Below, one piece after another: positions 6,040 through 46,607 of a stretch of DNA of 64,000 nucleotides. The translations under genes and the position numbers were made by a program. Below the pieces are notes generated by a model. It was given only the letters and a program-made list of their open reading frames with translations. It had not been told where the DNA came from and searched no databases. The stretch spans positions 8,217,889-8,281,888 of the forward strand of contig NC_057752.1 in assembly GCF_004010195.1 (NCBI RefSeq), read 5' to 3'. The first letter of the stretch is position 1, and each line of letters opens with the position of its first letter. This DNA comes from Chiloscyllium plagiosum. Lineage: Eukaryota.

Positions 6040-6264
6040 ATGTTTATCAGAGTCAAAAAGTGTGGCACTGGAAAAGCACAGCAGGTCAGGCAGCATCTGA
6101 GGAGCAGAAGAGTCAATGTTTCAGGCATAAGCCGTTCATCAGGAATTCCTTCATCACATTCCTGATGAAGGGCTTACACCCAAAACGTTGATTCTCCTGT
6201 TCCTTGGATGCTGCCTGACCTGCTGTGCTTTTCCAGTGCCACACTTTTCGACTCTGATAAACAT
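6040..6264. mobile_element. Fold-back short element with degenerate hammerhead motifs at its centre
   Basis: ~105-bp inverted arms (tgtttatcagagtc.../...gactctgataaaca); right arm starts attcCTGATGAagggcttacacccAAAAcgtt. Confidence 0.8.
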
Positions 6265-7821
6265 TAATAAACAAGAGGCTGGAAGAACACAGCAAGCCAG
6301 GCAGCATCACAGCCTGAACTTCTCCACCTCCTGAAGCTGCCTGACTTGTGTTGTTCCAGTCTTCTGTCTGTCTACTTTGGATTCCAGTATCTGCAGAGTG
6401 ATAAACGTTAGTCAGCTTATAACTGCTCTGAGATATTCCTTGCTCACTGAATGTCGTCAAGACCTCACATAAATCCTCAAACAACATCTCCCACCCTCAA
6501 TAGTAAACTGAAGAGCTAGCCTGAATTACATGCTCAAGTTTCAAAAGTAGAGTTTTGGCCCGAAAGTGGGCATAAATTGCAAACACCTACAAGAATTTTA
6601 TGCACATGGAAATAATCAAATAGGTAGAATTATACGAAAATATATTTGAATAGTAGCTGTTCATACTGAGAAATGTCACAAAATACTTCACATAAATTAA
6701 AAGGTTGAGTCTTCAGGATCTTTCAAATGCATCTGGGCGAGTCGCAAATACTACGGGAGCATAGCTTTAATGTCCTTATTTTCACAACAATTCTTGATTT
6801 CGTATGCAGTTAGTTAGCAAACTTGGAAATTTGGGACGGAGGGATGAAAACACAGTTGGATCACAGGTGTTGCTTTGCAGTGCAGGCTGAGGTAATGAGA
6901 GAGGAGTTACAGCACAACAACTGGTAGAAAAGTGTAAATGCAACATGCAGCAAATCCTCGCTCTTCACACGGGATAAAGGCACGGACTTTTCCCGGATAA
7001 CAAAAAACTCCCAGACCGCTCCGATGTAACTCTCCTAGGTAGCGTGAAGGACCGCTAGATCAGAGTAGACGAGTTACCGACGAAAAATAAAGGAGTCTGG
7101 AACCAACTTTGCGAGTACCCGGATCGCAAACAGAGTGAGTGTAACAAGTTTACATAAGCATTCTGAGAAGAGTTAGATGAAAGAGATGACAACGTAAACT
7201 AAGATTCTGCAGACAGGACGTGTGCAAACATTTTGATATGTTACATGTATACTGGAAGGCTTTCCCTAGTTACCATTAAAGTGTAGGATGTGGGTTAGGT
7301 TTTGATTTTGTATCCTAGTCTGTTTGCTACGGCAAGGTAGAGAACTAAGACTATACAGTCTTCAAGAAAAACATAACTACTTCGACCAAAGTTTAGAAAT
7401 AGGTCAAATATTCAATACGGCTTTGATTTTGTAGTTAAACGTAGGAATTTGGGAAGCAGAGAAATGGTTGGATCACAAGTTTCTCTACAGGATAAACACA
7501 GCAAGGAGCGGCAGGGAGCAAAACGGAGGCATTACAGCAACATTTCAAATGATCAGAGCATAATTACAACTTGACAACCTTCCATTCTGGAAATACGGAT
7601 ATAGAAATTTACAGAGAAAGTGCACGCAAACGTAGAATTTCAATATATTTACTTTTGTTTATATTCGATTGGCGTGCATTGTTCTGTCCCAAATTCTCAA
7701 TTTTCCCGTTTAAACAATTATCAACTAAATCTCAGTCAATAGCATTATTGCCTGTGAACCCACGACCATCTGACTTTAAATCGCATTTGTGTTAAAAATA
7801 AATTTTGTATTCTAATCTCTT

Positions 7822-8525
7822 CAGTGCAGTACTAATGAAATGCTACACAATTGGAAGTGTCTTCTTACAGATTAAACATTAAGCCAAGGCTTCAACATTC
7901 CTTTCAGATGGATGTGTAATGTGTCATGGCACTATTTGAAAGAACAGCATTGCAGTTATCCCTGGTCAACAATGATCCCTCAAACGACATCCTCACATTG
8001 ATCGTGCTTTCCACAAGTTGGCTGCTGGATTTCCTACAATTTTTTTTAAAAAGTACTTCACTGACTGTAAAGCATTTTGGGATGTCCTGAGGTCATTGAG
8101 ATGTACAACATGGAAACAGACCCTTCAGTCCAACTTGTCCATGTTGACCAGACATCCTAAATAAATAGTTCCAACTGCCAGCATTTGGCCCATGTCCCTC
8201 TAAAACCTTCCTATTTATATACCCATCCAGATGCCTTTTAAATGTTGTAATTGTACCAACCTCCACCTCCTCTGGCATATATACCACCCTCTAGTTGAAA
8301 CAGTTGCCCCTTAGGTCCCTTTTAAATCTTCCCTCTCACCTTAAACTTATGACCTCTAGTTTGGACTTCCCCTACCTGGGGAAAAGATATCCATACCCCT
8401 CATGATTTTATAAACCTCTATAAGGTCACCCTTCAGTCTCTTCGGCCTCTCCATATAGCTCAAATGTTCCAACCTCAGCAACATCTTTGTAAATCAGGTC
8501 ATGAAAGACACAATAAAAAGTGCTT
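7822..8525 (+). mobile_element. Deu-domain SINE (SacSINE1/AmnSINE-like) interrupted by a minus-strand CR1 3' fragment (8097..8495)
   Basis: cagtgcagtact...catggcactatttgaa...aaaagtacttca..gactgtaaagc..tttggga.gtcctgaggtc; CR1 insert flanked by aggtcat (8090..8096, 8496..8502); family recognised from memory. Confidence 0.65.
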
Positions 8526-14858: not shown

Positions 14859-16505
14859 TCAACTCTCTTCTGCACGACAGAGGAACCTCATACTTTGGGA
14901 TGCATTTGGGTAACTGACCATTTGAGTGGTGGTATAACTCATGGCAATTCCTGGCAGTGATTGTGTAACTGCCACAGGTGTAGAGATAGCAAGTGGTGCC
15001 ATTGAAACTGGTGAAGTCATCCCCTGGACATAGGGTGCAGAGATAGAAGCGCTAAGACAAGGAGGACTTTGGGATGTGGCTTCAGAACATAATGCATTAT
15101 GAGCTCGAGCTTGCGCTATCAACTCTTGATGAGAAATGGGTTGTGATCTCAGTGTCTGGTTGCTCAGGGTGGTGTGAGTCTTTACTATGCTACGGTTATA
15201 ATTGGTAACAGTGTGCAAAGCTGGGTGTTGTGTTGGGTCAGCCCCAGTGTTCAGGATCCCCAACTTCACCTGCTTGCGCAGATCTGCATTTTGTTCCAGA
15301 AGGACCTCATTAGTCAGCATTAAGCTTGACACCTGCTTTTTGAGTTCTTCATTGCGCTTTCTGAGCATATGGTTTTCCTCCTCCAAAAAACTGAGTTCAC
15401 CTGGGCGCAGACTGGGAGTGCTGTAATCAAATACTTCAAAACGCAGGCCCTCCACCCTTCTCCTTTTCGGATGCTGGTCGTAATCACATCTCTCTGTCTC
15501 ATAGAGGTCATCCAAACGGTCATATCTACAAATCTCAGGAGAAAGTTCTCTATCTTGTGACGACACTCTTTCTACACTTTTTTTATCATTGTCATCACGT
15601 TTCAAATGCTGGAATTTACATTTGGATCCTCTTCGACATTTGCCCTTTAGAAAGTCACGACAAAATGGGATCTCCTTTGTAATAAGAGGAAGATTAGAGG
15701 GTGAAAGCCCAAAGGTCACAGCCACTGTCTGTTGCAAGTGAGCAGGAAGCTTTCCTGTTTTATTGTAATAATTCTCTTCCCCCTTCGTCCCGTGAATGAA
15801 TGTGCAGTTCTCACGGGTACATTTACTATTCTGAAAGTACTGACAAAAGATTGACTCATGCCGCATGTCACCCACATTGTAGGCCTCAACATTGTCCGGA
15901 TGAAAGTACCTGCAATTCTTACCACGGTTGCAGACATTGCGCAGAAAGTCACGGCAAACATTCCGCTTGCTCTTGCTCACCTCATATTTGCTATTATTGA
16001 CTAAATTATCAGCGTCATCACTTAGATCAGTGTGGTTGGTGACCTCAATATCATCTGGGTGAAAATACCTGCAATTCTTACCACGATTGCAGAGATTGCG
16101 CAGAAAGTCTCTGCAAATGTTCTGTTTGCTTTTGCCAGCCTCATCATTGCCAATATTCACTAAATTATCAGTGTCATTCCTTACATCAGTGAGGTCAGAA
16201 GCCTCAATGTCATCTGGGTGGATATACCTGCAATTCTTACCACGATTGCAGAGATTGCGCAGAAAGTCTCGGCAAATGTTCTGTTTGCTTTTACCAGCCT
16301 CGTCACTGGCAATGTTGACTAAATTATCAGTTTCGTTCCTTATTTCGGCAAGGTCGGAGGCCTCAATATCATCTGGGTGGAAGTACCTGCAATTCTTACC
16401 ACGGTTGCAGACATTGCGCAGAAAGTCTCGGCAAACATTCCGTTTGCTCTTGCCAGCCTCATATTTGCCGCTGTTGACTAAATTATCAGTGTCGTTCTCG
16501 GACAT
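14859..16505 (-). CDS. ZC3H10-like paralogue, 548 aa, with six CCCH zinc fingers (finger 1 present four times), KRRR motif and coiled coil
   Basis: Uninterrupted ORF, colinear with the ZC3H10 at 46608..47810 (CRDFLRNVC, FIHGTK, GLSPS, CRDFLKG.C.RGSKCKF, KRRRV.GLRFE, FLEEEN.MLRKR.EELKKQ, TNEVLLEQNA, ASQSMR); splice acceptor ttctttttcttttgcag just upstream, exon start 16553. Confidence 0.93.
   Translation of the reverse strand: MSENDTDNLVNSGKYEAGKSKRNVCRDFLRNVCNRGKNCRYFHPDDIEASDLAEIRNETDNLVNIASDEAGKSKQNICRDFLRNLCNRGKNCRYIHPDDIEASDLTDVRNDTDNLVNIGNDEAGKSKQNICRDFLRNLCNRGKNCRYFHPDDIEVTNHTDLSDDADNLVNNSKYEVSKSKRNVCRDFLRNVCNRGKNCRYFHPDNVEAYNVGDMRHESIFCQYFQNSKCTRENCTFIHGTKGEENYYNKTGKLPAHLQQTVAVTFGLSPSNLPLITKEIPFCRDFLKGKCRRGSKCKFQHLKRDDNDKKSVERVSSQDRELSPEICRYDRLDDLYETERCDYDQHPKRRRVEGLRFEVFDYSTPSLRPGELSFLEEENHMLRKRNEELKKQVSSLMLTNEVLLEQNADLRKQVKLGILNTGADPTQHPALHTVTNYNRSIVKTHTTLSNQTLRSQPISHQELIAQARAHNALCSEATSQSPPCLSASISAPYVQGMTSPVSMAPLAISTPVAVTQSLPGIAMSYTTTQMVSYPNASQSMRFLCRAEES
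15861..16496 (-). repeat. Coding tandem repeat, 4 x 159 bp (53 aa), each unit one C-x7-C-x5-C-x3-H finger plus linker
   Basis: cctgcaattcttaccacg recurs at 15909, 16068, 16227 and 16386, exactly 159 bp apart. Confidence 0.97.
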
Positions 16506-21242: not shown

Positions 21243-22005
21243 ACCCGTTGAAGACGCTATTGAAACCAGTCTACAGCCATTGTTTAATGAACAGTAACCG
21301 CTCAGCAAACGTTTCCCATCTTATCACAAACTTTCCTTTTTGTTCTTTCTTCCCCGACTTCGATATTTCCTTAAAACGTTTAAGATATTTAACTTTTTTC
21401 AGTTCTGAACAAAGGTCTTTGACCTGAAACGTGAATTCTCTATCTACAGACACTGCCAGAACTCTCAGAATCACTATGAAGCTGAAGGAGGCCATTCGGC
21501 CCATCCTGCCGCCACCACCACATTGCCACGCAGTGCACTTCATAGCATAACTAACTCGCTGTGTCAAAAAAATCACATCGCCCTTGCTTTATTTGCATAT
21601 CACTTTAAATCTATGCCATCGTTCTTTTTCTCTATGAGCAGGAACAGCTTCTCCCTATCCACTCTGTCTCCGCCCCGTCATAATTTTTAAACTGCAAGGG
21701 GAACAGTACCAACGTTTCCAATCCATCCTCATAACTCACCTACAGATTTACACTCAGTGCCACGTACATATTTTCGACATTTCTGTTCAGTAGTACTGCA
21801 TCACAATTCCATTTCATCTTTCACCTCTTACTTTTCAACAATGGCTTTTTTTCCTTTTAAGTGTGAGGGTATCATAAGCTTTAACAACTGATGGATACTG
21901 ACACCCTTCTGGATTCATCTCTTTCCATTTCTTTGACTCCATCCCTCCTTCCAGATTTCCAGAAGGCATTTAATAAAGGGCCATGTAAAACATTATTGTA
22001 GAAAA

Positions 22006-22215
22006 GGGCTGAAAAATGTGTTGCTGGAAAAGCGGAGCAGGTCAGGCAGCATCCAAGGAGCAGGAGAATTGACGTTTCGGGCATAAGCCCTGAAGAAGGG
22101 CTTATGCCCGAAACGTCGATTCTCCTGTTCCTTGGATGCTGCCTGACCTGCTGCATTTTTCCAGCAACACATTTTTCAGCTCTGATCTCCAGCATCTGCA
22201 GTCCTCACTTTCTCA
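22006..22215 (+). mobile_element. Short fold-back element with hammerhead core and 14-bp TSD
   Basis: TSD attattgtagaaaa (21992..22005, 22216..22229); CTGAAGA-a-gggcttatgccc-GAAA-cgTC at 22090..22117. Confidence 0.85.
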
Positions 22216-22229
22216 ATTATTGTAGAAAA

Positions 22230-22800
22230 TACAAGCTCATGATGTAGGTGGTAATAATATTGGCATTGACTGAAAATTGGCTAACTGAATGGAAACAGTG
22301 TAGGCATAAATGGTTAATTTCTGATTGGCAAGATGTTCCAGCATCTGCAGTCATTGTTTTTACCTCGTAATGGATGGTGTGTTACAAGGATCAGTGTTGA
22401 GGCCTCAATCTTTTACAATGTATATAAATAAGGGTTTGATTGCTAAATTTGCTAATGACAAAGGTAGGTTGCAAAGTAAGAGCACATAAAGAAGTGACAA
22501 AGGGGTATAGAGAGGTTAAATGAGGGGGAATAGATCTGGCAAATGGATATTAATGTAGAAAAACATGAAATTGTCCATTTTGGCTGGAAGAATTAAGCAT
22601 GTTGTTTAAACAGTGAGAAATTGCAGAACTCTGAGATGTAGACAGATCTGAGTGTCCTCGTGCATGAGTTGCAAGAGGTTCATGTGCACATACATTAAGT
22701 AACTAGGAAAGCTAATAGAATGTGACTGTTTATTGCGAGGGGAATGGAATACAAAAGTAGGACAATTATGCTTCAATTACAAGGGCGTTGGTGAAACCAC
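22230..22800 (+). mobile_element. Degenerate CR1 RT fragment
   Basis: Remnants of QGSVL.P..F, KFA.D and W.M..NV.K...VHFG motifs. Confidence 0.65.
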
Positions 22801-24809
22801 ATAGAATCGTAGAGATATACAGCACGGAAACAGACCCTTCGGTCCAACTTGTCCATGCCGACCAGAATTCCCACCCCAATATAGTCCATGATTTCCCATA
22901 ATTTGCAGTACCTTTGTCATATGTGCACTCTTCTTATCTGGTACATTCTCCTTCCTTCCACCTTGGTGCCTAGACATTAGGAGAAAATTTCATGCAAAAT
23001 CACAGGCCCCTCATCCAATTCTACTGGTATCACACATTTGCAATTGAACTTGTTGAAGCTTGGTGGCCCTTGGTGAACATTTTTAAAGTTCTCCAAAAGG
23101 TTACCTCAGCTCTCCAAAGAACTCTCGTAAATTTGTATCTATTCCTCAAATTCATAAATCTCATGAGTCATGTTACACAAAACATTTTCAATGAAAATTA
23201 GTTCTGAGTAAAAGCAACAGTCTCTTAATCTATGGACATGCAAAATTCCACTGCTCCTGCTCAGTGAAAATGGTAGTTGCCAGATATCAGGCCAGGATTT
23301 CTGGATTGAGGACTCTGTCACCATTTTGTTAAAGGTCCATAGTTCTTCCATCTCGATCACAAATCACAGTCTCATTTTGATTTGAGAAGAATATTCACCT
23401 TATGCCTAAATTCATTGAGGAAGGAATTGAATTGTCTTTTGTCTCGTTTGAGAAAATTGCTTCAAAGTTACAATGCCATAAAAAATCTTTGACAATTTTA
23501 TTACAGTTGGAAGACATATTTATATTTCAGGATTATGTAGAAAAATTGGAAAATATGAAACAATTTGGACATTTTATTTAGATTAAATCCAGGAATGAGA
23601 GTAACAACCTAATGTGTGCTGTAAGTCGTTGCTGTTTATCGAAAAATGATTTTAAAGAAAATAGCCAAGCAAAGCTTTCAAGGAATTCAGAGGTATATTG
23701 TCTAATAATTTAGACAGTCTGGCTTTGAAGTGACTAAGGGGTCTCTATACTAGTGGTTGTCTAATAAACCTTTCTTTTAGGAAATCAAATCCCACTGAGA
23801 AGGCTGTAAAGTTTCTAAATAAAGAGGCAGTAAAATTTGCTTGCAAACCCACAGAGAAGCTAGAGAAATAAGAAATGTGATTACTGAACAAACACTAATT
23901 ACAATGAGGAGGCCAGAAGGACTGAAATGACAGAGTTTTCTCAGAATATTGAATGAGTCAGAAACAAAACCAGAAATTGTTGGAAAAACTCAAAGTCTGG
24001 CAGCATAGATGGAGAGAAAGCAGAGCCAACACCTCGCATCTAGTTCTTCTCTTCTCTTGCATAACAGCAATAGAGTTCCCTTGACACTCACCCCACCATA
24101 CCATCATCCATATCCAAAGATCGTTACAGATAATGATTCGACCAACTCCAACAGTTTGCCACCACCATAAACATATTCTCATCATCTCCATTGTCAGCCT
24201 TCTGTAGGGAACAATCCTTCCAGGACATCCTGGTCCACTCCTCCTCCATTTCTACACATCTGAAATATTGTGTAAAGTCTTGTTGCTTTATTTAAGGAAT
24301 GGTGTAAATTGTTAGATATTGTTCAGAGATCATTTACTGGACTAATACTGGAATAGGTATGTTGTCTTCTGAGGAGATGTTGGACAGGCTAGACTTTTAC
24401 CTGCTGGCATTTGAAAGTAAGAGATGATTTGATTGAAACATTTAAGATCCTGAGATATCTTGACAGGGTGCATGTAGAAAGAATGTTTTCTCTTGTGAGA
24501 CATGCTAAAACTAGAGGTTACTGTCACTGGAAACCAACTGCTATGTGTGGATCAACAGTGGTAAGCGAGAGTCAGGATGCAAACATAGTTATCTGTAACT
24601 GCAAATTATAGTCTGAGCTGTATAAAAATAAATTTTATTTATATTTTCGATTGCGATCTGAAATGGGAAAACAATTGTTTTAAAAACCAAAGATAGTTGA
24701 AGGATTGCCGCACTTTTTAAAAGCCAATAACCTGACACTCATTGAAGTACTGTTTGTACTTCAACTGCTTGGTTTGCAGATGAGTTGGAGCTAAATGGTG
24801 TGTTTGAAA

Positions 24810-25788: not shown

Positions 25789-26179
25789 CATGATGTGGAG
25801 ATGCCGGTGTTGGACTTGGCTGGACAAAGTTAAAATTCACACGTCACCAGGTTATAGTCCAACAGGTTTATTTGAAAGTACAAGCATTTGGAGCGCTGCT
25901 CCTTCATCAGGCAGCTAGTGGGGCAGGTACATAGGACACAGAATTTATTAATAAAAGCTCAAAGTGTCATACGACTGATGCAATGCGATAGGATTTACAT
26001 ATTAATCAATAAAAACCTGCATCCCCATTCTAAGTGATTCAATACTTAACAGCCATCCAGGTTTGTCGAGTACATTGCATCAGTTGTATGACACTTTGAT
26101 CTTTTACTTATAAATTCTGTGTCCTATGTACCTGCTCCACTAGCTACCTGACAAAGGAGCAGCACTCCAAAACCTTGTA
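25789..26179. mobile_element. Second family of fold-back element with degenerate hammerhead motifs and 12-bp TSD
   Basis: TSD cattaagggaaa (25777..25788, 26180..26191); inverted arms 25878..25985 and 26073..26180; minus arm reads CTGATGA-a-ggagcagcgctcc-aaatgctt. Confidence 0.8.
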
Positions 26180-27104: not shown

Positions 27105-27199
27105 CATGTGATTTTATCTGTTACTTACCAATAATACAAGAAACACGACATGATCAATGTTGATTTTTCTTAAGAAACAAAAGCAGTGATGCATGCTTG

Positions 27200-28640
27200 A
27201 AAACCACAGAAGGAAATCTTAGACAAGACTTGAAGCTGTGCCAAAGTCACATTTTTTTTCTGGGGTCCCGGTGTAAAAGTCATTACAGGGGATGTGAGCC
27301 TGTTGAGGCAGGGTTGGTTCAAAATTGGGCTGTAAAGATACTAACTGCAACAGCGAGACCAAAAATAATTGCATTTAGTCAATCCAACACTCTCAACTAT
27401 TGTGCCCAGACAGATTCTATGCCAAAGGTAACTTCAAAGATGATGCTGTATTGCACCTCTAAGAAGATACAATTCCATCAATCAACCCTACCAAAAATGC
27501 AGTATTCACATACAAGAAAAGCTCAAGCATGAGCTGGACATTATGGGACATAATGACATTATTTGGCTTGTACATCACACTGGTGCAGTTCTATTCAGTG
27601 TGTGCTTAAGAAAGATGGAACACTCAGGACATGTTTGGACCCAAGACATCTGAATCTCTTTCGAAAAGGAATGCACGCACAAAATTCCAATGCAAGATGA
27701 ATTGAATCGCAGGAGCTAAATTCTGCTCTGGTCTGGATACCCAACATGGATGTTGACTATTCAATTGGCCAAAAAATCTCAAAATCGCTACTTTCAGACA
27801 CCACGTGAAAGACATTGCTTCCAGAGACTACCTTTTGGCCCGTCATTCTAGATCAGTTCTAGCAGTGTATGGATTGAATTGCAGAAAATATTCCTGGATG
27901 TATAGGTATTACCAATTTATACTGTTGTGATGGTACAAACAAAAAAAAAACATTGCCAAAATCTGCATTCATTAATGACAGCAGATCGTGGTGAAGAATG
28001 TGTCTTCAACAGTAAAAGGTGTCAAGTAAATGCAGGTCAGATCAAACTTTTTGCCTTTATCTAGTTATGTAATGGGATCTGTCCTGACCCAGGCAAAGTC
28101 AAAGATATAGGACACACATTTCAAAGATGCTCTACAGGGATTTCTCAGATATTTACAAGTTCCTAGCTCAGAACATATAATACTTTTCCAATAAAGCATT
28201 GTCTTTAAGAGAACCCTTAAGGAAATACATACTATATGTATAACATATATGTATGACACTTTGATCTTTTATTTATAAATTCTGTGTCCTATGTCAATGC
28301 ATGCTTGAATCACTGTAAAACTGGCATTGTCAGTGGAAACCTGTATCCCACAGTGTTATGACGCAAGGATTAAGATAGTCCTGGAAGCCAATGTGTTTCA
28401 GAAGGAGCATGCATCCAAATATTTTAATCCAAAGATCTATCACAAGTACAATTCAACAATTCCAACATAGAGTATAAAATGCTTGTTCTATTATTTGGTG
28501 TCACAAGATTGCATGGGTATCTGTTTGCGAGAAACTTGTTTGGTACATCACTGTGGAAACTGATCTCAAACTATTGAAACTGATTTGGCGCAAACCACTT
28601 CAAGTACACCACCTGGATTACAACGACTCCTGTTAGGTAG
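27200..28640 (+). mobile_element. Decayed Ty3/Gypsy LTR retrotransposon pol relic (RT and RNase H)
   Basis: Frameshifted translations KKDGTLRTCLDPRHLN, AGAKFCSGLD, FQTPRERHCFQRLPFG, FGVTRLHGYLF, ITVETDLKLL..IWRKPL, PPGLQRLLL. Confidence 0.8.
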
Positions 28641-28907
28641 TGACAGAAATCAATGGTGCTCTGCCCCTGGTCCCTAACCTGGGCACAGTAACCCTGCCCT
28701 AACCTGAGTACAACAGGCCCCCTAGAGCCAAAAACAGAAGTTGCTGGAAAAGATCAGCAGATCTGGCAGTATCTGTGAAGAGAAATCAAAATTAACGTTT
28801 CTGGACTGGTGACCCTTCCTCTGAACATGGGCTTACTGTAACCAACAGAGATTATGTTTTGAAGGCAAGTTGGGATAACTCTGCCAAGCCCTTACCTGTC
28901 TAAGTTC

Positions 28908-30050: not shown

Positions 30051-30079
30051 CAGTTACAGGACAAACACCTTGAAAATCA

Positions 30080-31780
30080 AGAAAGGCTTTGTGCGTGGGC
30101 AATTGTGTCTTACTAAATTAATTGGATTTTTAAAAGAAGTGATTGGTATGTGTATGGAATGAGCTGCCAGAAGAAGTGGTGGAGGCTGGTACAATTGCAA
30201 CATTTAAAATACATTTGGATGGGTATACGAATAGGAAGGGTTTGGAGGGATATGGGCCGGGTGCTGGCAGGTGGGACTAGATTGAGTTGGGGTATCTGAT
30301 CGGTATGGACGGGTTGGACCGAAGGATCTGTTTCCATGCTGTACATCTCTAAGACTATGACTCTATGGTGAAGAGGATTAATGAAGGCAGAGCAGTGAAC
30401 ATTGTCTATGCAGACTTCATTAAGGCGTTCGACAAGGTTCACATGGTAGATTGGTTGACAAGAGCTGAAAATGTGTTGCTGGAAAAGCGCAGCAGGTCAG
30501 GCAGCATCCAAGGAACAGGAGAATCGACGTTTCGGGCATAAGCCCTTCAGGTTAGATCATGTCAAATACAGGGATAACGAGCCATTTGGATACAAAATTG
30601 GCTCAAAGGTAGGAGACAGAGGGTTTTGGTAGAGGGTTGTTTTTCGGACCGGAGGCCTGTGACCAGTAGTTTGCCACAAGGACCAGTGCTGGGTCCACGG
30701 CTTTTGTCATTTATATAAATGATTTGGATGTAGATACAAGAGATATGTTTAGTAAGTTTGCAGATGACACCAGAATTGGTGGTGAATGGACAGGTAAAAA
30801 CAATGACTGCAGATGCTAGAAATCAGATTCTGTATGAGAGTGGTGCTGGAAAAGCACAGCAGTTCAGACAGCATCCAAGGAGCAGTAAAATCAATATATC
30901 GGGCAAAAGCCCTTCATCAGGAATACCTGTGTAATGGACAGTGAAGAAGCTACCTCAGAGTACAACGGGACCGTGATCACATGGGCCGAGGAGTGGCAGG
31001 TAGAGTTTAATCTAGGTAAATGTGAGGTGTTACATTTTGGTAGGGCAAATCAGGGCAGGACTTATACACTTAATGGTAAGGTCCTTGGGAGTTTTGCCAA
31101 ACGAAAAGACCTTGGAGTGCAGGATCATAGTTTCTCGAAAGTGGTAGACAGAGTAGTGAAGAAAGCGTTTGGTGTGCTTGCCTTTATTGGTCAGTGCATT
31201 GAGTTTGGGAGCTGGGAGGTCATGTTGCAGCTGTATAAATCATTGGTATGGCCACTTTTGGAATACTGCGTTCAATTCTGGTCTCCCTACTGTTGGAAGG
31301 ATGTTGTGAAACTTGAAAGGGTTCAGAAAAGATTTACAAGGATGTTGCCAGGGTTGGAGGGTTTGAGCTATAGGGAGAGGGTGAATAGGCTGGAGCTATT
31401 TTCCCTGGTCTGTTGGTGGCTGAGGGGTGACCTTATCAAGGTTTATAAAATCTTGAGAGGCATGAATCAGGTGAGTAGCCAAGGTCTTTTCCCCAGGGTA
31501 GGGGATTCTAAAACTAGATGTCATGGGGTTAAGGTGAGAGGGGAAAGATTTAAAAGGGACCTTAGAAGCAACATTTTCATGTGGTGTGTGTATGGAATGA
31601 ACTGCCAGAGGAAGTGATGGAGGCTGGTATAATTACAGCATTTCAAAGGCATCTGGATGGGTATACGAATAGGAAGGGTTTTGAGGGATATGGGCCAAAT
31701 GGGACTAGATTAATTTAGGATATCTAGTTGCATGAACGAGTTGGACTGAAAGGCCGGTTTCTGGCCTAAATATCTCGATG
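30080..31780 (+). mobile_element. CR1 LINE RT and 3' end with nested insertions (CR1 tail ~30145..30365; short hammerhead-family elements ~30462..30548 and 30794..30932)
   Basis: KFADDT and ORF 30934..31617; insert 30794..30932 flanked by aatggacag (30785..30793, 30933..30941). Confidence 0.85.
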
Positions 31781-33484
31781 AATCTATGAAGAATGAAGAT
31801 AGTGCATGATTGACATGCAGATGTGGTACTGTTGAATTTATACATAGGATAGAAGGTCAGAATCATAAATACTACACAGGAACAGAGAAAGCCAAAATAT
31901 GCAGTGAGCCTAAATGCTACAAAGTCACTACACCAAATAAAGCAACATTGAGGGGAAACAAAAGCCAACTCAGGGAACTGTAAAATACACCAATTGTGCA
32001 AAACATACATGCAGAAATCAACCTGGAAATGAAGGTGTGAATGGTCATCAGGACAACAAACAGTGCACTAAATACACACGTGACTTGAACACACCGACAA
32101 GTCAAGAACACCTAAGTGCGAATCCAAATCTCCAGAAGGTTATACCATCATAAGATTTGGAAGGATTGTCAAGCCACCAAATATGTCATTTAGACTCTTA
32201 ACTTTTTTCAATTACTGTTTCTATTTTAATACATTTGCGGCTACCCTAATGTAGATGTACTTTCACTCTGTGAGTAATTTTTATCTTGGGTGGGGGGGGT
32301 GGGTTTAAAAAGTAATGTGTGATTTTTGCTTCAAGACCTGATTTGTTTTAAAGAGCTGGATGTGCTCATGTGCCAAGGACTAGAATAAAATTACATGATT
32401 AACTGTTGCCCAGCCAAAAGCAAACTAGAATCAGAATCCATACAATTATCTACAACTGCAGTTACAGTAGTCTTATTGAGATTTTCAAGTAAATGGAATC
32501 CATGTGACTTAATCTGCATTGTAGATTAATAATACAACAGCTTCAATCACCACCCTCAACACCCCTTCTCCTTCCAACACAGTATCTTGTGCAAATGCAA
32601 GAGATACAAAACTTACCCTTCTCATTGTCCAAGCCTCCTTGCAATCCATCAAAATACCAATTTACGCACTGTATATGTTTTTTTTCTGTTTAGTACTCTG
32701 TATTTTCCTTTCTTACTCTCTACTGGGGAGACCAAACCTAGATTGGGTGACTGCTTTGTGGAATATATCCATTCAGGCCAGAAGCATGACCTCAGATTCC
32801 AGATTGCCTGTAATTTTCATTCTCCACTGTTCTTCCAGTTTGAACTCTGTCCTTAGCCTCCGACAGTGATCCAATGAAGGTGAATGTAAGCTCGAGGAAC
32901 AACATGCATCTTTTGATTGGGTACTTTGCAGCCTTTCGGTGTTCAAAAATTTTAACTCATAACTACTGTTTTCATTTTTCTCCAATGTAATTGGGGATTA
33001 TTCGACTTTCCTATTCACACCTACTGTAAGTCCATCATTTGTTTCCTTACACGCATTTCATTTTTACTTGCACCATCATCCTTTTTTGTCGTTTTTTTGT
33101 CGTTTACTCCCGCCTTCCACCTTTCACAGGCTTTTCCTTTTGTGTAAGCCCCCTCCCACTTTTCTTGTCTCTGTACAGGTACTTGTTATTTGCTTAAAAC
33201 CTGTTACTTCTGAATTCTTCCCCAGTTAAAGGTCACTAACCTGAAACGCTTCTCTCTGATTTTTTTTCGTTTCTCAAAAGATGGTGCAAGACTTGCTGAG
33301 TATTTCCTTGTATTGTTTCAGGTTTTCAAATTATTAACATCTATGCTGTTGGGGACTGTTCAATGTTATAGATATTAGAAAATTTATGGGCGAGGGAATT
33401 CAGGTTAAATTTTGAATGTAAAATAGTAACCGAGCTGACTGAAAGGAATTCAGGTTACGAATCGCAACTCATTGGCGTTAAGCC

Positions 33485-33563: not shown

Positions 33564-34120
33564 GTAAATACATTCCTTTTTTTTTTGTCTGTTTTGTATC
33601 CGTTTTGATTTTTACTCTTGATTATTCCGACAATTTAAATATTCAGAATGAAGGTTTAATTTAGTTTTCGTGTGTACGCCGTTGTTTCATGTAGCACAAA
33701 GTTAAGGCCTAGAAATCCCGTAACAGCCTTCGAATCTCTCGACTAGCTTGTGACTGATATACGGTGTAATGTACAGTAAAATGATCGTTAAATCAGAATT
33801 TTACGAGCATTGTTTTTGAAATTTCATAGATCATTCATCCATTTGCAGCACTAAGGAATCAATATTTACTTCTGATGAAACTTGAATAGACTCTTGTTTT
33901 CTGCCGAAATGCTTCTTTCGCGTACAAAGTGGACAAGTAAGAGGTTGAAAGAACACAGCAAGCCAGGTAGTATGTACTCCACCTCCTGATGCTGTCTGGC
34001 TTGCTGTGTTCTTCCATCTCCTGCTTGTCTACTTTGGATTCCAGCGTTTGCAGTTTTTTTTTGTCGTTTTTTGAGTACAAAAGCTTATACTTCTAAATTG
34101 CCTTGAGCATAACAAAATGG

Positions 34121-34251
34121 GAGAAAGTGAGGTCTGCAGATGCTGGAGATCAAAGTTGAAACTTTATTGCTGGAACAGCACAGCAGGTCAGGCAGCATCC
34201 AGGGAACAGGAGATTCGACGTTTCGGGCACAGGCCCTTCTTCAGGAAGGCC
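34121..34251 (-). mobile_element. 131-bp element with an intact minimal hammerhead motif and 8-bp TSD
   Basis: TSD caaaatgg (34113..34120, 34252..34259). Confidence 0.85.
34214..34247 (-). ncRNA. Candidate minimal type I hammerhead ribozyme
   Basis: Minus strand UUC-CUGAAGA-A-GGGC(CUGU)GCCC-GAAA-CG-UC-GAA: full core, 3-bp stem I, 4-bp stem II, palindromic ACGU in place of stem III. Confidence 0.65.
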
Positions 34252-40307: not shown

Positions 40308-40320
40308 AAGCTTACATGGT

Positions 40321-41400
40321 AAGCAGTTGGCTAGTGCCCTATCAATGAGGTTACCAATAGGTTGATTTTGTAGAATGGGGAAATTATAGGAATTCCAATG
40401 CATATATTGACTGTTGAATGTAGGCTTGTGGTAGACAGTAGTAGAGAACACATTGGCATATTTCTCAATTTACATGAGGAAAGAGAGCTTGTTTGCCTCG
40501 TTTCAGCAGCAGATTTTACCTCTGACACATTTACAACATTTGTATCCACAGTTGCATCAAAGAATTTGTTTATACAGTTTCATAAATTCCCATCCTGTGC
40601 ACAAATTTACAGGTGAAATGGCACAATCAAACAAGCTTTGTATTTGTTAGGAAATCTGCAAATGGGTTTTCTTCACCATATATTGCAAGGCTGCATGCTC
40701 TAGTCAATTTATGCACTGGTATTCCAACAATTCGATGCACTACAAGATCAACGTTATTGGCAAACTCATGAATTGGCCTCTAACCATCTGCTCATGCAAG
40801 CTTGATGCTGAGATAGCCATTATCATATGTGAATAGCTGTGTTATTGGCTATCTTATTAAATCAGCACCCACTGTATATCTCACAAATTTATGGAAGGAT
40901 CTATGGCCACCACTTTTTTGGCCCTGAAACCTGTCCAATCTACCTTGATATCCATCTCTCATTGCTATTTTGCAGGAAACATGAGAATGGTATTCCACAC
41001 TGATAGGATGTTGCCATCAAGCCACAGAGACATTTTGCCTCTGTAAACAAGTAATGCGGTTAATGAGTTTCAGTTGTGTGATATATGTCTATAGGTTCTA
41101 CATCTTAAAAACTGACAGATCATATTAAGTAAAACATCCCATTGATTGTCCACAGCAGGCAGCAGGCTAACTGTGCTCAACCAGCCCGTGCTTGTAAATT
41201 TCAGAATACCATGTCCGATATTTGGATGAGATCTTGCTGCTGGACATCATTTTACGAATAATCCTGACTCCGATGAGAATTACACCAGAAACCAAGATTA
41301 TCAATCTGGTTTGAAGTGTGATTCATTTGCGTGTGCTTAGGCTACACATATTCACACACCTAGCCCTGTTCTTTGTAGAATTTGTCCTTACATTGCACCT
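40321..41400. mobile_element. Old Penelope-like relics, minus strand to ~40610 then plus strand
   Basis: Minus strand TTVYHKPTFNSQYMHWNS...IGNLIDRAL; plus strand QFMHWYS..SMHYKINVIGKL...TICSCKLDAE, both resembling the PLE RT thumb. Confidence 0.55.
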
Positions 41401-41429
41401 TTTCATTGAGGAAACCGGTATGGGGACTG

Positions 41430-41613
41430 GAAAGGCATAGCAGGTTAGGCAGCATCCGAGGAGCAGGAAAATCGATGTTTCGGGCACAAGCCCTTCATCT
41501 TGCCTGAAACGTCGATTTTCCTGCTTCTCGGATGCTGCCTGACCTGCTGTGCTTTTCCAGCACCACTCTAATCTTGACTGATTTCCAGCATCTGCAGTCC
41601 TCACTTTCACCTA
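41430..41613 (+). mobile_element. Short fold-back hammerhead-family element with 13-bp TSD
   Basis: TSD ggtatggggactg (41417..41429, 41614..41626); the arms meet within the hammerhead motif. Confidence 0.85.
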
Positions 41614-43282
41614 GGTATGGGGACTGCCAATCCATGCTGTTTTTGTCATGACAACACCTTTGCCAATCAGAGACTATCTGCCTGGTCTAATTTTAAACAA
41701 CTAACTAAGATTGACAGTTAACAGTTTCTAATTCATCCCCATGCCAGCCATGGTTGAAGTAATAAGCACCATCTTCTCATGCTAAGTTGTTCCTTTTCTA
41801 AATATGGTTTCTTGCATTCCAGTCGAGATCGGTGTGAGTTAAGTTTCAACGTTATGCTTCTTTTTGACAGTGGACAGTGCAATTTCCAACCTTAGGAGAA
41901 GAGGGAGGCTAAGATTCTTTAAATTGGTCATGACACTTAAACTTCCATAAGTAATACATTTAAAGAAACTTTTGTTCTCACATGCTGCAAGGAATAGTAT
42001 GTATGCCTTATACTCTATTCCGAAGAAAGAGGATTGGTTCTCTTGTTCTGCTTGCATTCTATTGTTCTGCTTGCATTCTATTGTTCTGGTTGCTGTCAAA
42101 AAAGACAAGAAGTGAAGAGCAGTCATGTTAACGTTTGCACGTTTTGGAAATTTGTCTTCCAAACAATACTTTTCATTGTCATTCAACGTTTTTGCTACAT
42201 CAGATTAGTTTGTTGAGTTTTTTTTTTACAGGCGTGTATATGTAGTCTCTGTAAACACTGTCAAATCTGAAAATAATTTTACAATTAATTGTTATTATTT
42301 CTGTTATAATTATAAAGGCGGATCTGTACCAGGATCAGACTTGGGTTGATTTGTTTTGATTGTAATCCATGATGGGAGAACAGCGACTGCTTCAGGTCCT
42401 GGAAGAACACTCATTTGTATTCTGTGTGAAGGCTATATTGTATATTGTGATGTATAAAACAGGACAAAATGTTGTCTAAGCACAAAGGTAAGTACAGGTG
42501 CAGAAGGAAGTTCAGTTTTTTTTCTCAGCCTCTCATAGAAACTCCAAATATCAGTCTCGTCACAGTATCGCACATATCACAGATTAACTCAAGGTTTTTG
42601 CATCCTCTGCCCTATCATAGGCATCATTTTAATTAATGATCACTGTGCTAAAGTGCCTTTTGACATCAATGCATGTATTTGCATTTTTTATCAGTTTGTA
42701 CCTCATTCCCCTTTGCTGACAGTCGTGACTTAATTTGAAACAGTGCTCAAATTATTGTTTTCAATTTCACGTGTAATTTCTGTTCACTTATGGGGCATGG
42801 GTATCGCTGGCAAGACCAGCATTTGCTGTCCATCATGTACCTCCTTTCAAAGTTGAACAATCTCTGATTTTTCTCAGTTTTTCCTTAGTAATTTTGAAAG
42901 ATTTAAGATCATAGCATGTGACAATTTGATATATTTTAATTTTTCTTGCAAAAAGCCACCTAACCTCACTCTCTTGCTTGTTTCCCTTATCCTTTTTAAT
43001 ATTCTTTTTCAAGTAATTATCTATTTAATAATTGTGACCTTTCTTGGAACAACAGTTTAGAGCATTTCACATCCAAATCACCCTCTATGAGGAAACACTT
43101 TTCAAACCACTCTCATTTATATCTTCATGCTAAATTTATGTGCACTCATTACCATTTCACCATAATCTTGAAGGCTTCTAATCAGGAACCCCTTAATTTT
43201 CTCCAATCTAGCAGAAAAGTCTTAAATTTAAAATTTAAATCTCTTTTAACTGTAATAGCCCATCCTGGTAATGTTATTTCAT

Positions 43283-44589
43283 AGTGCGTTTTGAGAAGAT
43301 CTGTAGCTCAGGTTGAGGTTTTGGATGTAGGTTTGCTCGCTGAGCTGAAAGGTTCATTTCCAGACGTTTTGTTATCCTACTAGGTAACATCTTCAGTGGG
43401 CCTCAGGTGAAGCAATGCTGAAAATTCCTGCTTTCTATTTATATGTTTGGGTTTCTTTGGGTTGGTGATGTTATTTCCTGTGGTGAAGTCACTTCCTGTT
43501 CCTTTTCTCAGGGGGTGGTAGATGGGGTCTAACTCGATATGTTCGTTGATAGAGTTCTGGTTGGAATGCCATGCTTCTAGGAATTCTCGTGCATGTCTTT
43601 GTTTGACTTGTCCTAGGATGGATGTATTGTCCCAGTCGAAGTGGTGTCCTTCCTCATCCATATGTGAGGATACTAGTGAGAGAGGGTCATGTCTTTTTGT
43701 GGCTAGTTGGTGTTCATGTATCCTCGTGGCTAGTTTTCTACCTGTTTGTCCAATGTAGTGTTTGTTACAGTCCTTGTATGGTACTTTGTAAATTACGTTA
43801 GTTTTGCTCATTGTCTTATAGGGTCTTTCAAGTTCATTAGCTGCTGTTTTAGTGTGTTGGTGGGTTTGTGGGCTACCATGATGCCAAGGGGTCTGCATAG
43901 TCTGGCAGTCATTTCCGAGATGCCTTTGATGTAGGGGAGAGTGGCTTGGGTTTCTGGATGTGTTTTGTCTGCTTGTTTGGGTTTGTTGCTGAGAAATTGG
44001 TGGACTGTGTTCATTGGGTACCCATTCTTTTTGAATACACGGTATAGGTGATTTTCCTCTGCTCTGTGTAGTCCCTCTGTCCTGCAGTGTGTGTTGGCTC
44101 ATTGAAATAATGTTCTGATGCAGCTTCGTTTGTGTATGTTGGGATGATTGCTTCTGTAGTTCAATATTTGGTCTGTATGTGTTGTTTTTCTGTAGAAGTT
44201 GGTTTGAAGTTCCCCATTGGCTGTTCGCTGTACTGTGACATCTAGGAATGGCAGTTTGTTGTTGTTTTCCTCCTCTTTAGTGAATTTTATGCCAGAAAGG
44301 GCATTATTGGTGGTCTTGAGAATTCCTAGAAGCATGACATTCCAACTGGAACTCTATCAACGAACACATCGAGTTAGACCTCATCTACCACCCCCTGAGA
44401 AAAGGAAGTGGAAGTGGCTTCACCACAGGAAATGACATTACCAACCCAAAGAAACCCAAACATTATAATTAGAAAGCAGGAATTTTCAGCATTGCTTCGC
44501 CTGAGGTCCACAGAAGATGTTATCTAGTAAGGTAATGAAACGTCTGGAAATGAATCTTACAGCTCAGCAAGCAAACCTACATCCAACGC
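43283..44589 (-). mobile_element. 5'-truncated Penelope-like retroelement (RT thumb plus GIY-YIG endonuclease) with inverted terminal repeats
   Basis: IKFTKEEE...LPFLDV...YRKTTHTDQILNYRSNHP; NVIYKVP..DC.KHYIGQTGRKLATRIHEH...REFLEA; ~268-bp inverted arms 43321..43588 and 44318..44586; flanking direct repeat tatttcat (43275..43282, 44590..44597). Confidence 0.92.
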
Positions 44590-46607
44590 TATTTCATCTT
44601 TGCTGATGTAGCCTTCCTATAACTGGGCACCATAAACTACCACAAAGTACTCCAACTGCAGTCTGACTAATGTCTTATGCAAGTTTAACACATCTCCTTA
44701 TTTTGGTGTTTGATACTTCTAATTATAAAACCCAAGAATTTGTGTTTTCCTTTTTATTCATGATGTTCGTGAAACTGATAATATTTTCAGTGAATGCCTG
44801 CAGTATCAAGGTTTTTTACATAAATAAATGTACTTCAACTTGTTGAAATAGCTGTTTCTCATTGAATAATTTATGTATATTCAGAATATTTTCAATTTAC
44901 ATACTTTTTCCCCTCAAAGTAATACTGTTCCCTCTACAAATATCTTCTGCATCAGTTGTCATGATCCCAATGTCTATGGCTAAATGGAGTTTTACTGATG
45001 CCACCTTTTGTTAATATTGATCGGTTTGTGATAAATGAAATAAGTTAGAGCTCTGTGATACTGGCCCAGATACACTGGTAAGGAATTACTTTTAGCTTTG
45101 TGTTATCAAAACGGGGAATGAGCTTTGTCATCAGTGTCACTTTCTGGGTAGGGGATGATGAAAGAACAACACTGAAAATGATTTTTCACACCTGCACTAC
45201 TTTAATAATCTTATAATTTTCAGCTGTGTACATTATTCATTTCAGTGGCCATCATTTGGAGCTTTCAGTCCATTCATTATTGACTATCAAAGGCACACAA
45301 GGTTCTGGCAAACAGATACCCTAAAAAAAATGGTATCAAAGTTCTGAATTTCATCAACTGCATTTTGTTTTCAAACAAACATTCCTGGCAAAAGTAATTT
45401 CTACTCTTGTCTTTCCAATCACTGTCCATTTTCACCTTTTCACTTTCTTGTATGTCATCTCATTATGTTTCTAGTTCTGTGATACTTTCAATTTTTTTTG
45501 TTTCTTTGGGTTCACATTTGTTTAGTATGATTGCAAGTATTGGATTCCACCACCAACCCCCACCACTATCTGTCTCAAGTGCTGACTCTCTTGCTGGGGT
45601 ACTTATGCATTATCTTCTTTACCAAATTGTGGGCATTCTTTACGTGCTAGTCAGGGTAATAATGAATGACCCTTACAAATGCTGGGATCAAAGGTGATAC
45701 CAAGCATTGTGGTCCCAAAGCTCTCATGTATATTTTCCAGTAGAGGTCACAGAGTTGAAATTCGAAGTGAAAACTCTCGCTTTTTTTTGTTTTCTGGATT
45801 GCTAAAAGCCATAGTCAACAATTCTTTCCAGGCAAGCAGGTGTAGTTTGTACTTTGGTCAATGAGTCAGGTACTCTTATTTATTTTTTTCAGTTTTCTCC
45901 CATCCCAATACCCAGAATTGTTTCTACACTGAGAAAAGAAATACGTCTTCCTCACTTCCATTAGTGATACTTTGAAGTGTGTGAAAGCTATATATTATGA
46001 ATTACTCTCTGATACTTCTGAAAGTATGCATGTACATTGAATGTGGTTAAGTTAATTCATGATAAAGTCTAAATCTTGGAGTTGTTTTGAAAGAAGCAAT
46101 TTTTATTTACTTTACATAACTGCATCTATATGAAATGTATCTCAGACTAATGAAGTAAATTTCTTTTTGTTCTTTGGTGATATCTAAAATGATGTAGGTT
46201 TGGCAAACCTCGGGCAAGTTTGCAATGAACATAAGCCAAGCACAAAATAACCTATAATTTATTACAATCCATACTTATCATTCCCCAACTCCGCCAAGGG
46301 ATCAGTGATGAAAGTGTGACTCTGGTACAGTAGGAGGTAGACTTCCGAAGTTGTAGTGAAGCCACATTGTGAGGAAGCATGTGGTACAACTAACCTAGTA
46401 ATGTTTGTTGCTGACTCTGGGCACATTTAGAAACCTTTTTCAATTCCATTACAATCATTGCTTAGCTTGCTGAGTACCAATTACAGTGGTTCAGGTAACA
46501 CTTAGCTTGTGGACTAATTCCTCCTTCTCTGTAAAGACATACCTTGATTTTCTTTTTCAGATGTTTTTGTGTACAGTGGCTGAGAAGCACAGAAATAGTC
46601 TGTGAAG

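What the first reader, a model, noticed from the sequence alone, without database searches (positions are those of the whole stretch)
6040..44597. Window-wide set of short, TSD-flanked mobile elements carrying minimal hammerhead ribozyme motifs, in at least three stem-II variants
Seen: the pattern CUGANGA + one extra base + hairpin + GAAA + NN + UH recurs with different stem II sequences. These are GGGC/GCCC (6160s, 22090, 30530s, 30900s, 34214, 41480s), GGAGC/GCUCC (25890s, 26150s), GUUACC/GGUAAC (Penelope termini) and a decayed GGUC/GACC form (~21405, ~28800, ~33230). Many copies have 8-14-bp TSDs, and in the GGGC family the 5' ends or inversion junctions fall at or just upstream of the motif. 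Established: Penelope-like elements carry minimal type I hammerheads in their pLTRs, thought to act as dimers. Inference: several families of non-autonomous PLE-derived ribozyme retroelements have been active at high density in this genome. I cannot tell whether they are catalogued for sharks.
Basis: partly seen in the sequence, partly recalled or inferred. Interest (0 to 1): 0.7.

Follow-up and report, generated by a model that had tools for sequence, protein, structure and literature searches.

The report
Penelope retroelement ends with minimal hammerheads
This stretch of a shark-like genome holds many short, mostly decayed end-pieces of Penelope-type jumping genes, most of which carry the tiny hammerhead ribozyme motif already known from such elements, so it is a new and abundant example of a known kind.

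Summary
The motifs are real: 9 descriptor hits with at most 2 mismatches against 1.6 by chance. I list 18 loci, 5.6% of the window. 7 of 16 loci tested have 8-14-bp target duplications (chance about 0.9%); an orthologous empty site confirms one. Only 2 of 17 arms keep the core, stem II and palindrome intact.

The layout is that of endonuclease-bearing Penelope-like elements (PLEs): head-to-head arms, a ~30-nt tail on one arm, 8-14-bp duplications. One locus still carries Poseidon-type RT-thumb and GIY-YIG code. No unit is tandem, so these are not non-LTR retrozymes.

All nine GGGC arms begin between -4 and +16 of the CUGA box, 13-32 nt upstream of the cut site, and read depth shows no step at that site. 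The copied RNA was therefore uncleaved and probably started at an initiator-like sequence overlapping helix I (inference). I could not link the GGGC group to an autonomous parent, so separate non-autonomous families are neither shown nor excluded.

This is a new member of a kind described in 2014. The scan has already noted it many times in this genome.

The parts
1..67 (+). GGGC-group copy, 3' half with tail, cut by the window edge
   Evidence: 62/67 identical to the 22090 arm
6046..6258 (.). GGGC-group head-to-head insertion: arm 6046-6146 (-), 11-nt middle piece, arm 6158-6258 (+). Both arms start at -4 and lack the 28-nt tail. No target duplication found
   Evidence: motifs 6142- (core 12/12, stem II 3/4) and 6162+ (11/12, 3/4)
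6263..6398 (+). Related group-B palindromic insertion without the hammerhead core; forward arm starts within about 2 nt of the position equivalent to the cut site; 8-bp duplication 6255-6262 / 6399-6406
21399..21470 (+). Decayed AGGUC/GACCU copy, core 10/12, stem II 5/5, helix I 4 bp; TCAGTT directly upstream of CUGA
22006..22214 (+). GGGC-group insertion: inverted arm 22006-22091 (no tail), forward arm 22089-22214 with tail. Core 12/12 at 22090-22117 but no helix I. 14-bp duplication 21992-22005 / 22216-22229
22337..22365 (+). Tail-only fragment (~30 nt) matching the tail of the 30920 copy
   Evidence: 29/30 in self-blast
23960..24046 (-). Old GGUC-group body without a recognisable hammerhead
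   Evidence: nhmmer E 1.3e-4
25789..26179 (-). GGAGC/GCUCC head-to-head insertion, arms reaching about 120 nt upstream of CUGA; motifs 25910- and 26148+ (core 10/12 each); 12-bp duplication 25777-25788 / 26180-26191
28251..28294 (+). Fragment of the GGAGC family's upstream region, no hammerhead
   Evidence: 42/44
28728..28830 (-). Decayed GGGUC-stem copy (motif 28823-, core 11/12, stem II 3/5), ends without tail
30461..30548 (-). GGGC-group single arm inside a LINE fragment, starts at +6, no tail, no duplication
   Evidence: 86/88 to the 22090 arm
30794..30932 (-). GGGC-group copy inside a LINE fragment, starts at -4 behind a few fold-back letters, with tail; core 11/12; 9-bp duplication 30785-30793 / 30933-30941
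33222..33335 (+). Heavily decayed AGGUC copy (core 7/12, stem II 4/5)
33930..34070 (+). Group-B palindromic insertion without core; forward arm starts about 5 nt past the cut-site position; 7-bp direct repeat 33922-33928 / 34075-34081
34121..34251 (-). GGGC-group 131-nt insertion, best-preserved motif (34244-34217: core 12/12, stem II 4/4, helix I 3 bp), with tail; 8-bp duplication 34113-34120 / 34252-34259
   Evidence: empty orthologous site in run X7, joint 34112->34252, 139 skipped, 8 letters fit both sides
41430..41613 (+). GGGC-group head-to-head insertion with the junction inside the motif (arms start at +3 and +16); 13-bp duplication 41417-41429 / 41614-41626
43283..44589 (-). 5'-truncated Poseidon-type PLE: RT thumb, linker and GIY-YIG remnant (44320-43590, one stop, one frameshift), 3' end with hammerhead 43396- and tail, plus an inverted tail-less arm 44318-44586 with hammerhead 44511+; 8-bp duplication 43275-43282 / 44590-44597
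53417..53530 (+).

Best explanation
These are the terminal modules (pseudo-LTR end: hammerhead, body and ~30-nt tail) of at least three PLE lineages: a GGGC/GGUC group, a GGAGC family and a Poseidon. PLE origin alone I put at about 0.9. SHOWN HERE: insertion with 8-14-bp duplications; head-to-head arms of which one usually lacks the tail; one copy still joined to Poseidon coding sequence; GGGC copies begin at the 5' arm of helix I and keep the leader upstream of the cut site. FROM THE LITERATURE: a PLE protein nicks both target strands and starts reverse transcription inside its RNA at two sites bounding the tail; it uses uncleaved RNA (PMC11167929). INFERRED: for the GGGC/GGUC group the RNA begins about 4 nt before CUGA, at an initiator-like TCA(G/T)T(C/T) that overlaps helix I. 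Priming at the tail of this 5'-proximal copy lets the RT run off the RNA end after about 125 nt, like a strong-stop cDNA, giving a hammerhead-plus-tail mini-insert. Priming from both target strands (or fold-back) and joining by microhomology gives the palindromes. The genomic copies are mostly dead, and those in palindromes would make hairpin RNA, not active ribozyme.
For: Layout matches Arkhipova 2013 (PMC3846280 passages: inverted pLTR, 31-bp optional tail, 8-10-bp duplications, palindromes at the junction) and Craig 2021 (PMC8557442 passages). Tail-less GGGC arms stop 28-32 nt short in 4 of 5 cases, and the Poseidon inverted arm about 33 nt short. Poseidon remnant: 82% identity to a zebra-shark RT-bearing protein; GIY-YIG match E 0.0022, below Pfam's cut-off. 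An ATG at the start of stem II opens 34 codons through the tail, as in the anole element. 0 of 9 GGGC arms share more than 4 nt upstream of CUGA; 4 of 9 start at -3 or -4. In run X21 depth goes 1571 -> 1514 across the scissile bond, with no step, and 513 reads are clipped at the upstream edge 34247. In run X1 the loose-end consensus at 34229 follows the family to -4 and then turns AT-rich and unlike the other runs. Variants listed at >=5% fall in N7, loop II, CpG sites and one helix-I position, none in CUGA-GA, GGGC or GAAA (20 rows hidden). By eye, 9 of the 56 motifs in Fig. S3 of PMC4209133 have TCA(G/T)T(C/T) within about 15 nt before CUGA (my rough chance figure is 1; the initiator consensus is recalled).
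Against: No transcription start was mapped: the one raw RNA run is single-cell poly(A), reads fall on both strands, 97% run on into unlike sequence, and no begin/end pile-up was seen. No autonomous parent of the GGGC group was found. Loose ends at 34247 share 6 further upstream letters in 4 of 4 runs, so a share of copies do extend past -4. 5 of 9 arms start at -1 or inside the motif, which a run-off model explains only by trimming at the junction. In D. virilis the start site is given as position 371, with an intron ending at helix I and C3 at 496 (numbering assumed to be the same), so a start at -4 is not general. No extra G opposite a cap precedes the -4 starts. GGAGC and Poseidon arms extend 120 to about 920 nt upstream, so the model covers only the GGGC/GGUC group.
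Confidence: 0.5

Rival explanations
1. Ordinary 5' truncation of long PLE RNAs: RT primes at the 3' tail and stalls or switches template at the hammerhead structure, so the ends pile up there without any RNA end.
For: PLE copies are typically 5'-truncated, and solo min-HHRs were read as truncated PLEs in 2014. Shared upstream letters in loose ends. Five of nine arms start at -1 or within the motif. The Poseidon and GGAGC copies in this window are plainly truncations.
Against: The structure is weak (stem II 4 bp; the 131-nt element folds no better than shuffles, z -0.06). A stall should fall at the 3' foot of the hairpin, yet 4 of 9 arms read through the whole motif and stop at -3/-4. None of 9 reaches further, whereas GGAGC and Poseidon arms pass their hammerheads freely.
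Confidence: 0.25
2. One reading: self-propagating non-autonomous ~130-nt families. Each unit would carry its own internal Pol II promoter and the RT start signal and be mobilised in trans (compatible with the best explanation as a second step).
For: Uniform short length; several subfamilies with different loops and bodies; very high abundance, 35,389, 39,534 and 10,766 contigs laid in three contig runs of three organisms. Precedent: non-autonomous Chlamys elements and an internal promoter in Penelope. Helix I is weakened (U-U or U-C at its third pair) in most window copies, as if selection were relaxed.
Against: Junctions differ in every palindromic copy, so the palindromes are not replicated units. 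No diagnostic 5' sequence foreign to a PLE was seen. No element-specific stranded transcript was seen (weak test).
Confidence: 0.2
3. Retrozyme-like cycle: hammerhead cleavage (as dimers) releases unit-length or circular RNAs that are reverse-transcribed.
For: Core and palindromic helix III are conserved, with compensatory changes between families. Two group-B arms start 0-5 nt past the position equivalent to the cut site.
Against: No tandem units. GGGC copies keep the leader and show no depth step at the cut site. Helix I is 2-4 bp with no loop 1. In the anole PLE, ribozyme mutants insert normally. 8 of 9 Xenopus dimers did not cleave.
Confidence: 0.05
4. The palindromes are MITE-like DNA transposons or microRNA-like hairpins and the motif is incidental.
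For: Long inverted repeats; weak Rfam miRNA matches (E 0.01-0.05, far below gathering scores).
Against: Arms are unequal, duplications vary from 8 to 14 bp, single-arm copies exist, and the same layout surrounds a PLE coding remnant.
Confidence: 0.01

Closest known systems
Minimal type I hammerheads (min-HHR) in pLTRs of metazoan PLEs (Cervera & De la Pena 2014, PMC4209133)
   Same: CUGANGA, one extra base, stem II, GAAA, palindromic NN, UH; short helix I; several families per genome (6 in coelacanth, 8 in Xenopus); mostly solo copies; opposite-strand pairs 100-700 bp apart. A coral Neptune motif in their Fig. S3 has a GGGC/GCUC stem and an ACGU palindrome.
   Different: No cartilaginous fish in the supplement searched (1 of its files could not be read). 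Stem II in the GGGC group is 4 bp, shorter than the 7-8 bp of schistosome motifs. Clustering of 5' ends at helix I is not described in the parts read.
Insertion architecture of EN+ PLEs (Arkhipova 2013, PMC3846280; Craig 2021, PMC8557442)
   Same: Head-to-head inverted 5'-truncated arm, optional ~30-nt tail on one arm, 8-10-bp duplications, junction palindromes and microhomology.
   Different: Here most units are reduced to 90-210 bp with no ORF, at about one locus per 3.6 kb.
Poseidon of Anolis carolinensis, PAc (Frangieh 2024, PMC11167929)
   Same: ORF start at stem II (window Poseidon); tail bounded by two end points; uncleaved RNA as template; no RNA ends at the cut site.
   Different: The GGGC group shows no conserved reading frame through the tail (frames differ between subfamilies), so it belongs to another PLE lineage, clade not determined.
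Animal non-LTR retrozymes (Cervera & De la Pena 2020, PMC7229834; Li 2026, bioRxiv 10.64898/2026.07.22.740005)
   Same: Non-coding, hammerhead-bearing, PLE-related, reported in one chondrichthyan (mean consensus 363 bp).
   Different: Retrozymes are tandem repeats of 150-450 bp, mostly with canonical motifs, and make circular RNA. These units are dispersed, shorter, head-to-head and carry minimal motifs.

Membership tests
PLE min-HHR | CUGANGA + extra base + stem II + GAAA + palindromic NN + UH | tested here: met
   2 exact and 9 near-exact hits vs 1.6 by chance; 2 of 17 arms fully intact in core, stem II and NN
PLE min-HHR | Compensatory changes between families | tested here: met
   By coordinates: pair next to CUGA is C-G, U-A or A-U; NN is CG, GC or UA; four stem II sequences. 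No formal statistic, because MAFFT did not give a structural alignment
PLE min-HHR | Helix I of 2-5 bp | tested here: met
   2-4 contiguous pairs in 11 of the 12 arms that hold the whole motif; lost in 22090+
PLE min-HHR | Self-cleavage as dimer or with protein help | not testable with these tools
   No RNA ends at the cut site in one poly(A) run, a weak test
EN+ PLE (Penelope/Poseidon) | RT followed by GIY-YIG ORF upstream of the hammerhead: GUUACC copy | tested here: met
   82% and 81% identity to P0001 over 44320-43590; GIY-YIG E 0.0022, under the curated cut-off
EN+ PLE | Linked RT-EN ORF: GGGC/GGUC and GGAGC groups | tested here: inconclusive
   None in the window; peptide searches gave no PLE protein; no genome held
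EN+ PLE | Inverted 5' arm, 30-40-nt optional tail, short target duplication | tested here: met
   empty site. GGAGC inverted arm is about 86 nt short, not 30
Non-LTR retrozyme | Tandem head-to-tail units each with a hammerhead | tested here: not met
   No such array among 7 TRF rows or 94 self-blast rows
Non-LTR retrozyme | Canonical type I motif (helix I about 6 bp with loop contacts) | tested here: not met
   Helix I 2-4 bp; no Rfam hammerhead match
Non-LTR retrozyme | Abundant circular RNA | not testable with these tools
   Only a poly(A) library was laid
Non-autonomous PLE family | Copies descend from a short master, independent of full-length elements | tested here: inconclusive
   Short uniform copies, but shared upstream letters in loose ends; no parent identified

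The most novel reading that the evidence does not exclude
In these shark PLEs helix I of the hammerhead doubles as the Pol II initiator, so the ribozyme sits at +5 of the transcript. Internal RT priming at the tail then spins off a ~130-nt unit holding promoter, ribozyme and priming signal, which can itself be transcribed and re-mobilised: a tRNA-free, Pol II-driven, SINE-like parasite born from strong-stop cDNA. Cleavage would remove a ~32-nt capped leader and act on RNA fate rather than on insertion; the two group-B copies that start at the cut site would be copies of cleaved RNA.
Probability: 0.15. Interest if true: 0.6.

Novelty: new member of a known kind. Interest (0 to 1): 0.22.

Why it matters
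The kind is known, so the value is modest. Cartilaginous fishes appear to hold very large numbers of these units, and the searches made found no paper describing them. That makes them a good statistical resource for two open questions: what the PLE hammerhead is for, and where PLE transcripts and cDNAs start and stop. The presence/absence difference between species (empty site in organism C) also makes them usable as phylogenetic markers.

Tried and rejected
No whole genome is held, so no genome-wide count or 5'-end map was possible. A 19-nt body motif gave 0 hits in viral contigs and 48 in metagenome contigs; by blast against the window and by reading the flanks none continues into the element, so all 48 were set aside as chance. 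A translated GGGC unit found no longer protein (1 candidate, none at E<=0.01). A profile of 8 such peptides gave 2 hits: one 96-aa product ending in the same repeat frame and one unrelated tandem-repeat protein, neither with PLE sequence; this is weak evidence either way. Four short upstream motifs from the loose ends found no parent fragment in the window. Rfam gave no hammerhead. MAFFT did not align the stems across families, so no covariation statistic was run. Three rows (33222, 53422, 41486) were out of register; the first two were redone, and the third arm has no 5' half of the motif. Loose ends at 34167/8 and 34229 reflect subfamily divergence and were not counted as element ends. The 23960 copy was dropped from the cut-site hint because its start is ambiguous. 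No RNA holder was listed by the run index; this is no evidence on expression. Literature searches: 'hammerhead, Penelope, shark' gave 4 papers, one relevant review; 'hammerhead ribozyme, elasmobranch' gave 0; two searches gave genome papers only, of which the whale-shark paper names Penelope once. Repbase and Dfam could not be searched. One supplementary file of PMC4209133 and all supplements of the 2026 preprint (which list its chondrichthyan families) were not seen and may bear on novelty.

Full report
CONTEXT. The window is 39% G+C and rich in LINE fragments. The closest named proteins to its Penelope remnant come from Stegostoma tigrinum and Chiloscyllium punctatum, so it is shark-like. 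No genome is held.

1. A descriptor (CUGANGA, one extra base, stem 4-7 bp, loop 3-8, GAAA, palindromic NN, UH) run on both strands gave 2 exact hits, 4 with at most one mismatch and 9 with at most two. Sixty dinucleotide shuffles gave 0.0, 0.15 and 1.6+-1.4. At three mismatches chance dominates (28 vs 15.7). Rfam returned no hammerhead among 14 weak matches. Self-blast and nhmmer with seeds cut from the window led me to 18 loci, 3,569 bp, 5.6% of the window. The GGGC, GGUC and GGGUC forms and a core-less 'group B' are homologous downstream of the motif (E 2e-5 for the 28823 copy; weaker, E 0.001-0.04, for B). GGAGC and GUUACC are unrelated outside it. Of 17 arms examined, only 22090+ and 34244- keep 12/12 core positions, full stem II and the palindrome. 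Decay is CpG-biased: 11 of 54 cells differ at CpG columns vs 55 of 630 elsewhere. Between families the pairs change together: the pair next to CUGA is C-G, U-A or A-U; NN is CG, GC or UA; stem II has four sequences. This was read by coordinates; no covariation statistic was run.

2. THEY ARE RETROTRANSPOSED INSERTS WITH PLE ARCHITECTURE. Direct repeats of 8, 8, 8, 9, 12, 13 and 14 bp flank 7 of 16 loci tested; 14 of 1500 random intervals reach 8 bp (ends set by eye). For 34121-34251 a contig of run X7 (organism C) joins 34112 to 34252, with 139 bases skipped and 8 fitting both sides. This is the empty site, while run X1 (organism A) carries the filled junction. Seven loci are head-to-head. In the GGGC group five arms lack the 3' end; four stop 28-32 nt short and one 50 nt short (with the duplication overlap removed at 22006). 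The Poseidon inverted arm stops about 33 nt short; the GGAGC one about 86 nt short. Arkhipova 2013 (passages read) describes inverted pLTRs, an optional 31-bp tail, 8-10-bp duplications and junction palindromes. Craig 2021 (passages) gives the same picture. The 43283-44589 element ties this to a PLE protein: 44320-43590 aligns at 81-82% to P0001 through thumb, linker and GIY-YIG, and an ATG at the start of stem II opens 34 codons through the tail, as reported for the anole Poseidon.

3. ABUNDANCE AND CONSERVATION OUTSIDE THE WINDOW. I laid 4 of 24 listed runs on 34040-34340 at 80% likeness: 35,389, 39,534 and 10,766 contigs in organisms A, C and D, and 3,078 of 13 million RNA reads in A. Depth is confined to 34117-34248. 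These are not copy numbers. Listed variants fall in N7, loop II, CpG positions and the third helix-I pair, and none in CUGA-GA, GGGC or GAAA; 20 rows were hidden and clipping near an element end hides variation. RNA reads come from both strands and 97% run on into unlike sequence, as expected for passengers in other transcripts. No begin/end pile-up was found.

4. WHERE THE COPIES START. With C3 = +1 the cut site follows +28. The nine GGGC arms start at -4, -4, -4, -3, -1, +3, +6, +8 and +16. None shares more than 4 nt upstream, while GGAGC arms reach about 120 nt and Poseidon arms about 190 and 920 nt. In the RNA run depth is 1571 at 34214 and 1514 at 34217, so few GGGC copies begin at the scissile bond. 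The template was uncleaved, which agrees with Frangieh 2024 (main text read: ribozyme mutants insert normally, no RNA ends at the cut site, both target strands nicked and extended, two internal RT starts bounding the tail). Against a fixed start: loose ends at 34247 share their first six letters in 4 of 4 runs, so longer copies exist; the agreement values (0.34-0.48) are close to those of random flanks and do not give the proportion.

5. MECHANISM. Helix I's 5' arm plus two upstream bases reads TCATTC in the GGGC group (from the loose ends) and TCAGTT at 21399 and 53417. At 53417 the same 6-mer could instead be a target duplication. Both fit the initiator consensus (recalled) with A+1 at -4. 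By eye, 9 of 56 motifs in Fig. S3 of Cervera 2014 have such a 6-mer within about 15 nt of CUGA (rough chance 1; rows not independent). Penelope has an internal TATA-less promoter (Schostak 2008, passages), but there the start lies about 125 nt upstream with an intron ending at helix I, so a start at -4 is not general. My best model (0.5): transcripts of the GGGC/GGUC lineage start at -4; RT primes at the tail of that first copy and runs off after about 125 nt; twin priming or fold-back builds the inverted arm. Rivals: stalling or truncation on long RNA (0.25), independent short masters (0.2, compatible as a second step), retrozyme cycle (0.05). Genomic copies are unlikely to cleave: the 22006 insert folds into one hairpin (-169 kcal/mol; forcing stem II with the core unpaired costs 37 kcal/mol), and even the best copy prefers an alternative fold by 2.9 kcal/mol.

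6. COMPARISON. Cervera & De la Pena 2014 (abstract, results, discussion, part of methods, and two of three parts of one supplement read) reported min-HHRs in PLE pLTRs, about 4,000 in coelacanth and 9,000 in Xenopus, in 6 and 8 families, mostly solo, some in opposite-strand pairs. Non-LTR retrozymes (Cervera 2020, passages; Li 2026 preprint, three of five parts, supplements closed) need tandem units, which are absent here. I found no paper on shark PLE hammerheads (listings), apart from the preprint's one chondrichthyan; Repbase and Dfam were not searchable. The review PMC6155905, the whale-shark paper and Chalopin 2015 were seen as passages only.

7. EARLIER NOTES. 102 of 157 notes on this genome fit 'hammerhead Penelope', and several reach the same reading, including the clustering of 5' ends. 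I noted the start-site idea before seeing those that state it. Two notes that favour ends of autonomous elements moved my odds slightly away from separate families; I could not check them. They are not independent support.

VERDICT. Real, ordinary in kind, unusually dense. New member of a known kind; interest 0.22. The one open lead is the fixed 5' start at helix I.

Noticed in passing
window 46599-47807 (+) and 14862-16514 (-): Two open single-exon ORFs of CCCH zinc-finger proteins, 51% identical over 394 aa, pointing away from each other 30 kb apart. The second has a 159-bp unit repeated 3.9 times that multiplies the first finger. The name ZC3H10 is recalled, not from a call.
   Followed up: partly
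window 6255-6406: A group-B element has inserted right at the tail-less end of a GGGC palindrome, whose two arms both end in the same few non-family letters in inverted orientation; possibly homing to a PLE end.
   Followed up: partly
window 6316-6398 and 33977-34065: Both group-B forward arms start 0-5 nt past the position equivalent to the hammerhead cut site, unlike the GGGC copies; n = 2, and the family's upstream sequence was not recovered.
   Followed up: partly
window 30461-30548, 30794-30932: Two GGGC copies sit 240 bp apart inside the same LINE fragment, so they are younger than it.
   Followed up: no
window 26838-27107, 34729-35022, 53069-53377, 58799-59123: A separate ~270-bp dispersed repeat family without the hammerhead motif, SINE-like in size.
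   Followed up: no
window 37442-40945: A long LINE-like remnant with ORF pieces at 37507 and 38822, a 62-base N gap (37983-38044) and a 90-bp inverted match between its ends.
   Followed up: no
window 50438-50537 and 51155-51259: A 100-bp inverted repeat pair (83%) about 620 bp apart, unrelated to the hammerhead families.
   Followed up: no
protein P0002, residues about 355-382: A zebra-shark predicted protein reads through the Poseidon 3' end across the hammerhead region and aligns to the window copy, so the same terminal module exists in that species.
   Followed up: partly
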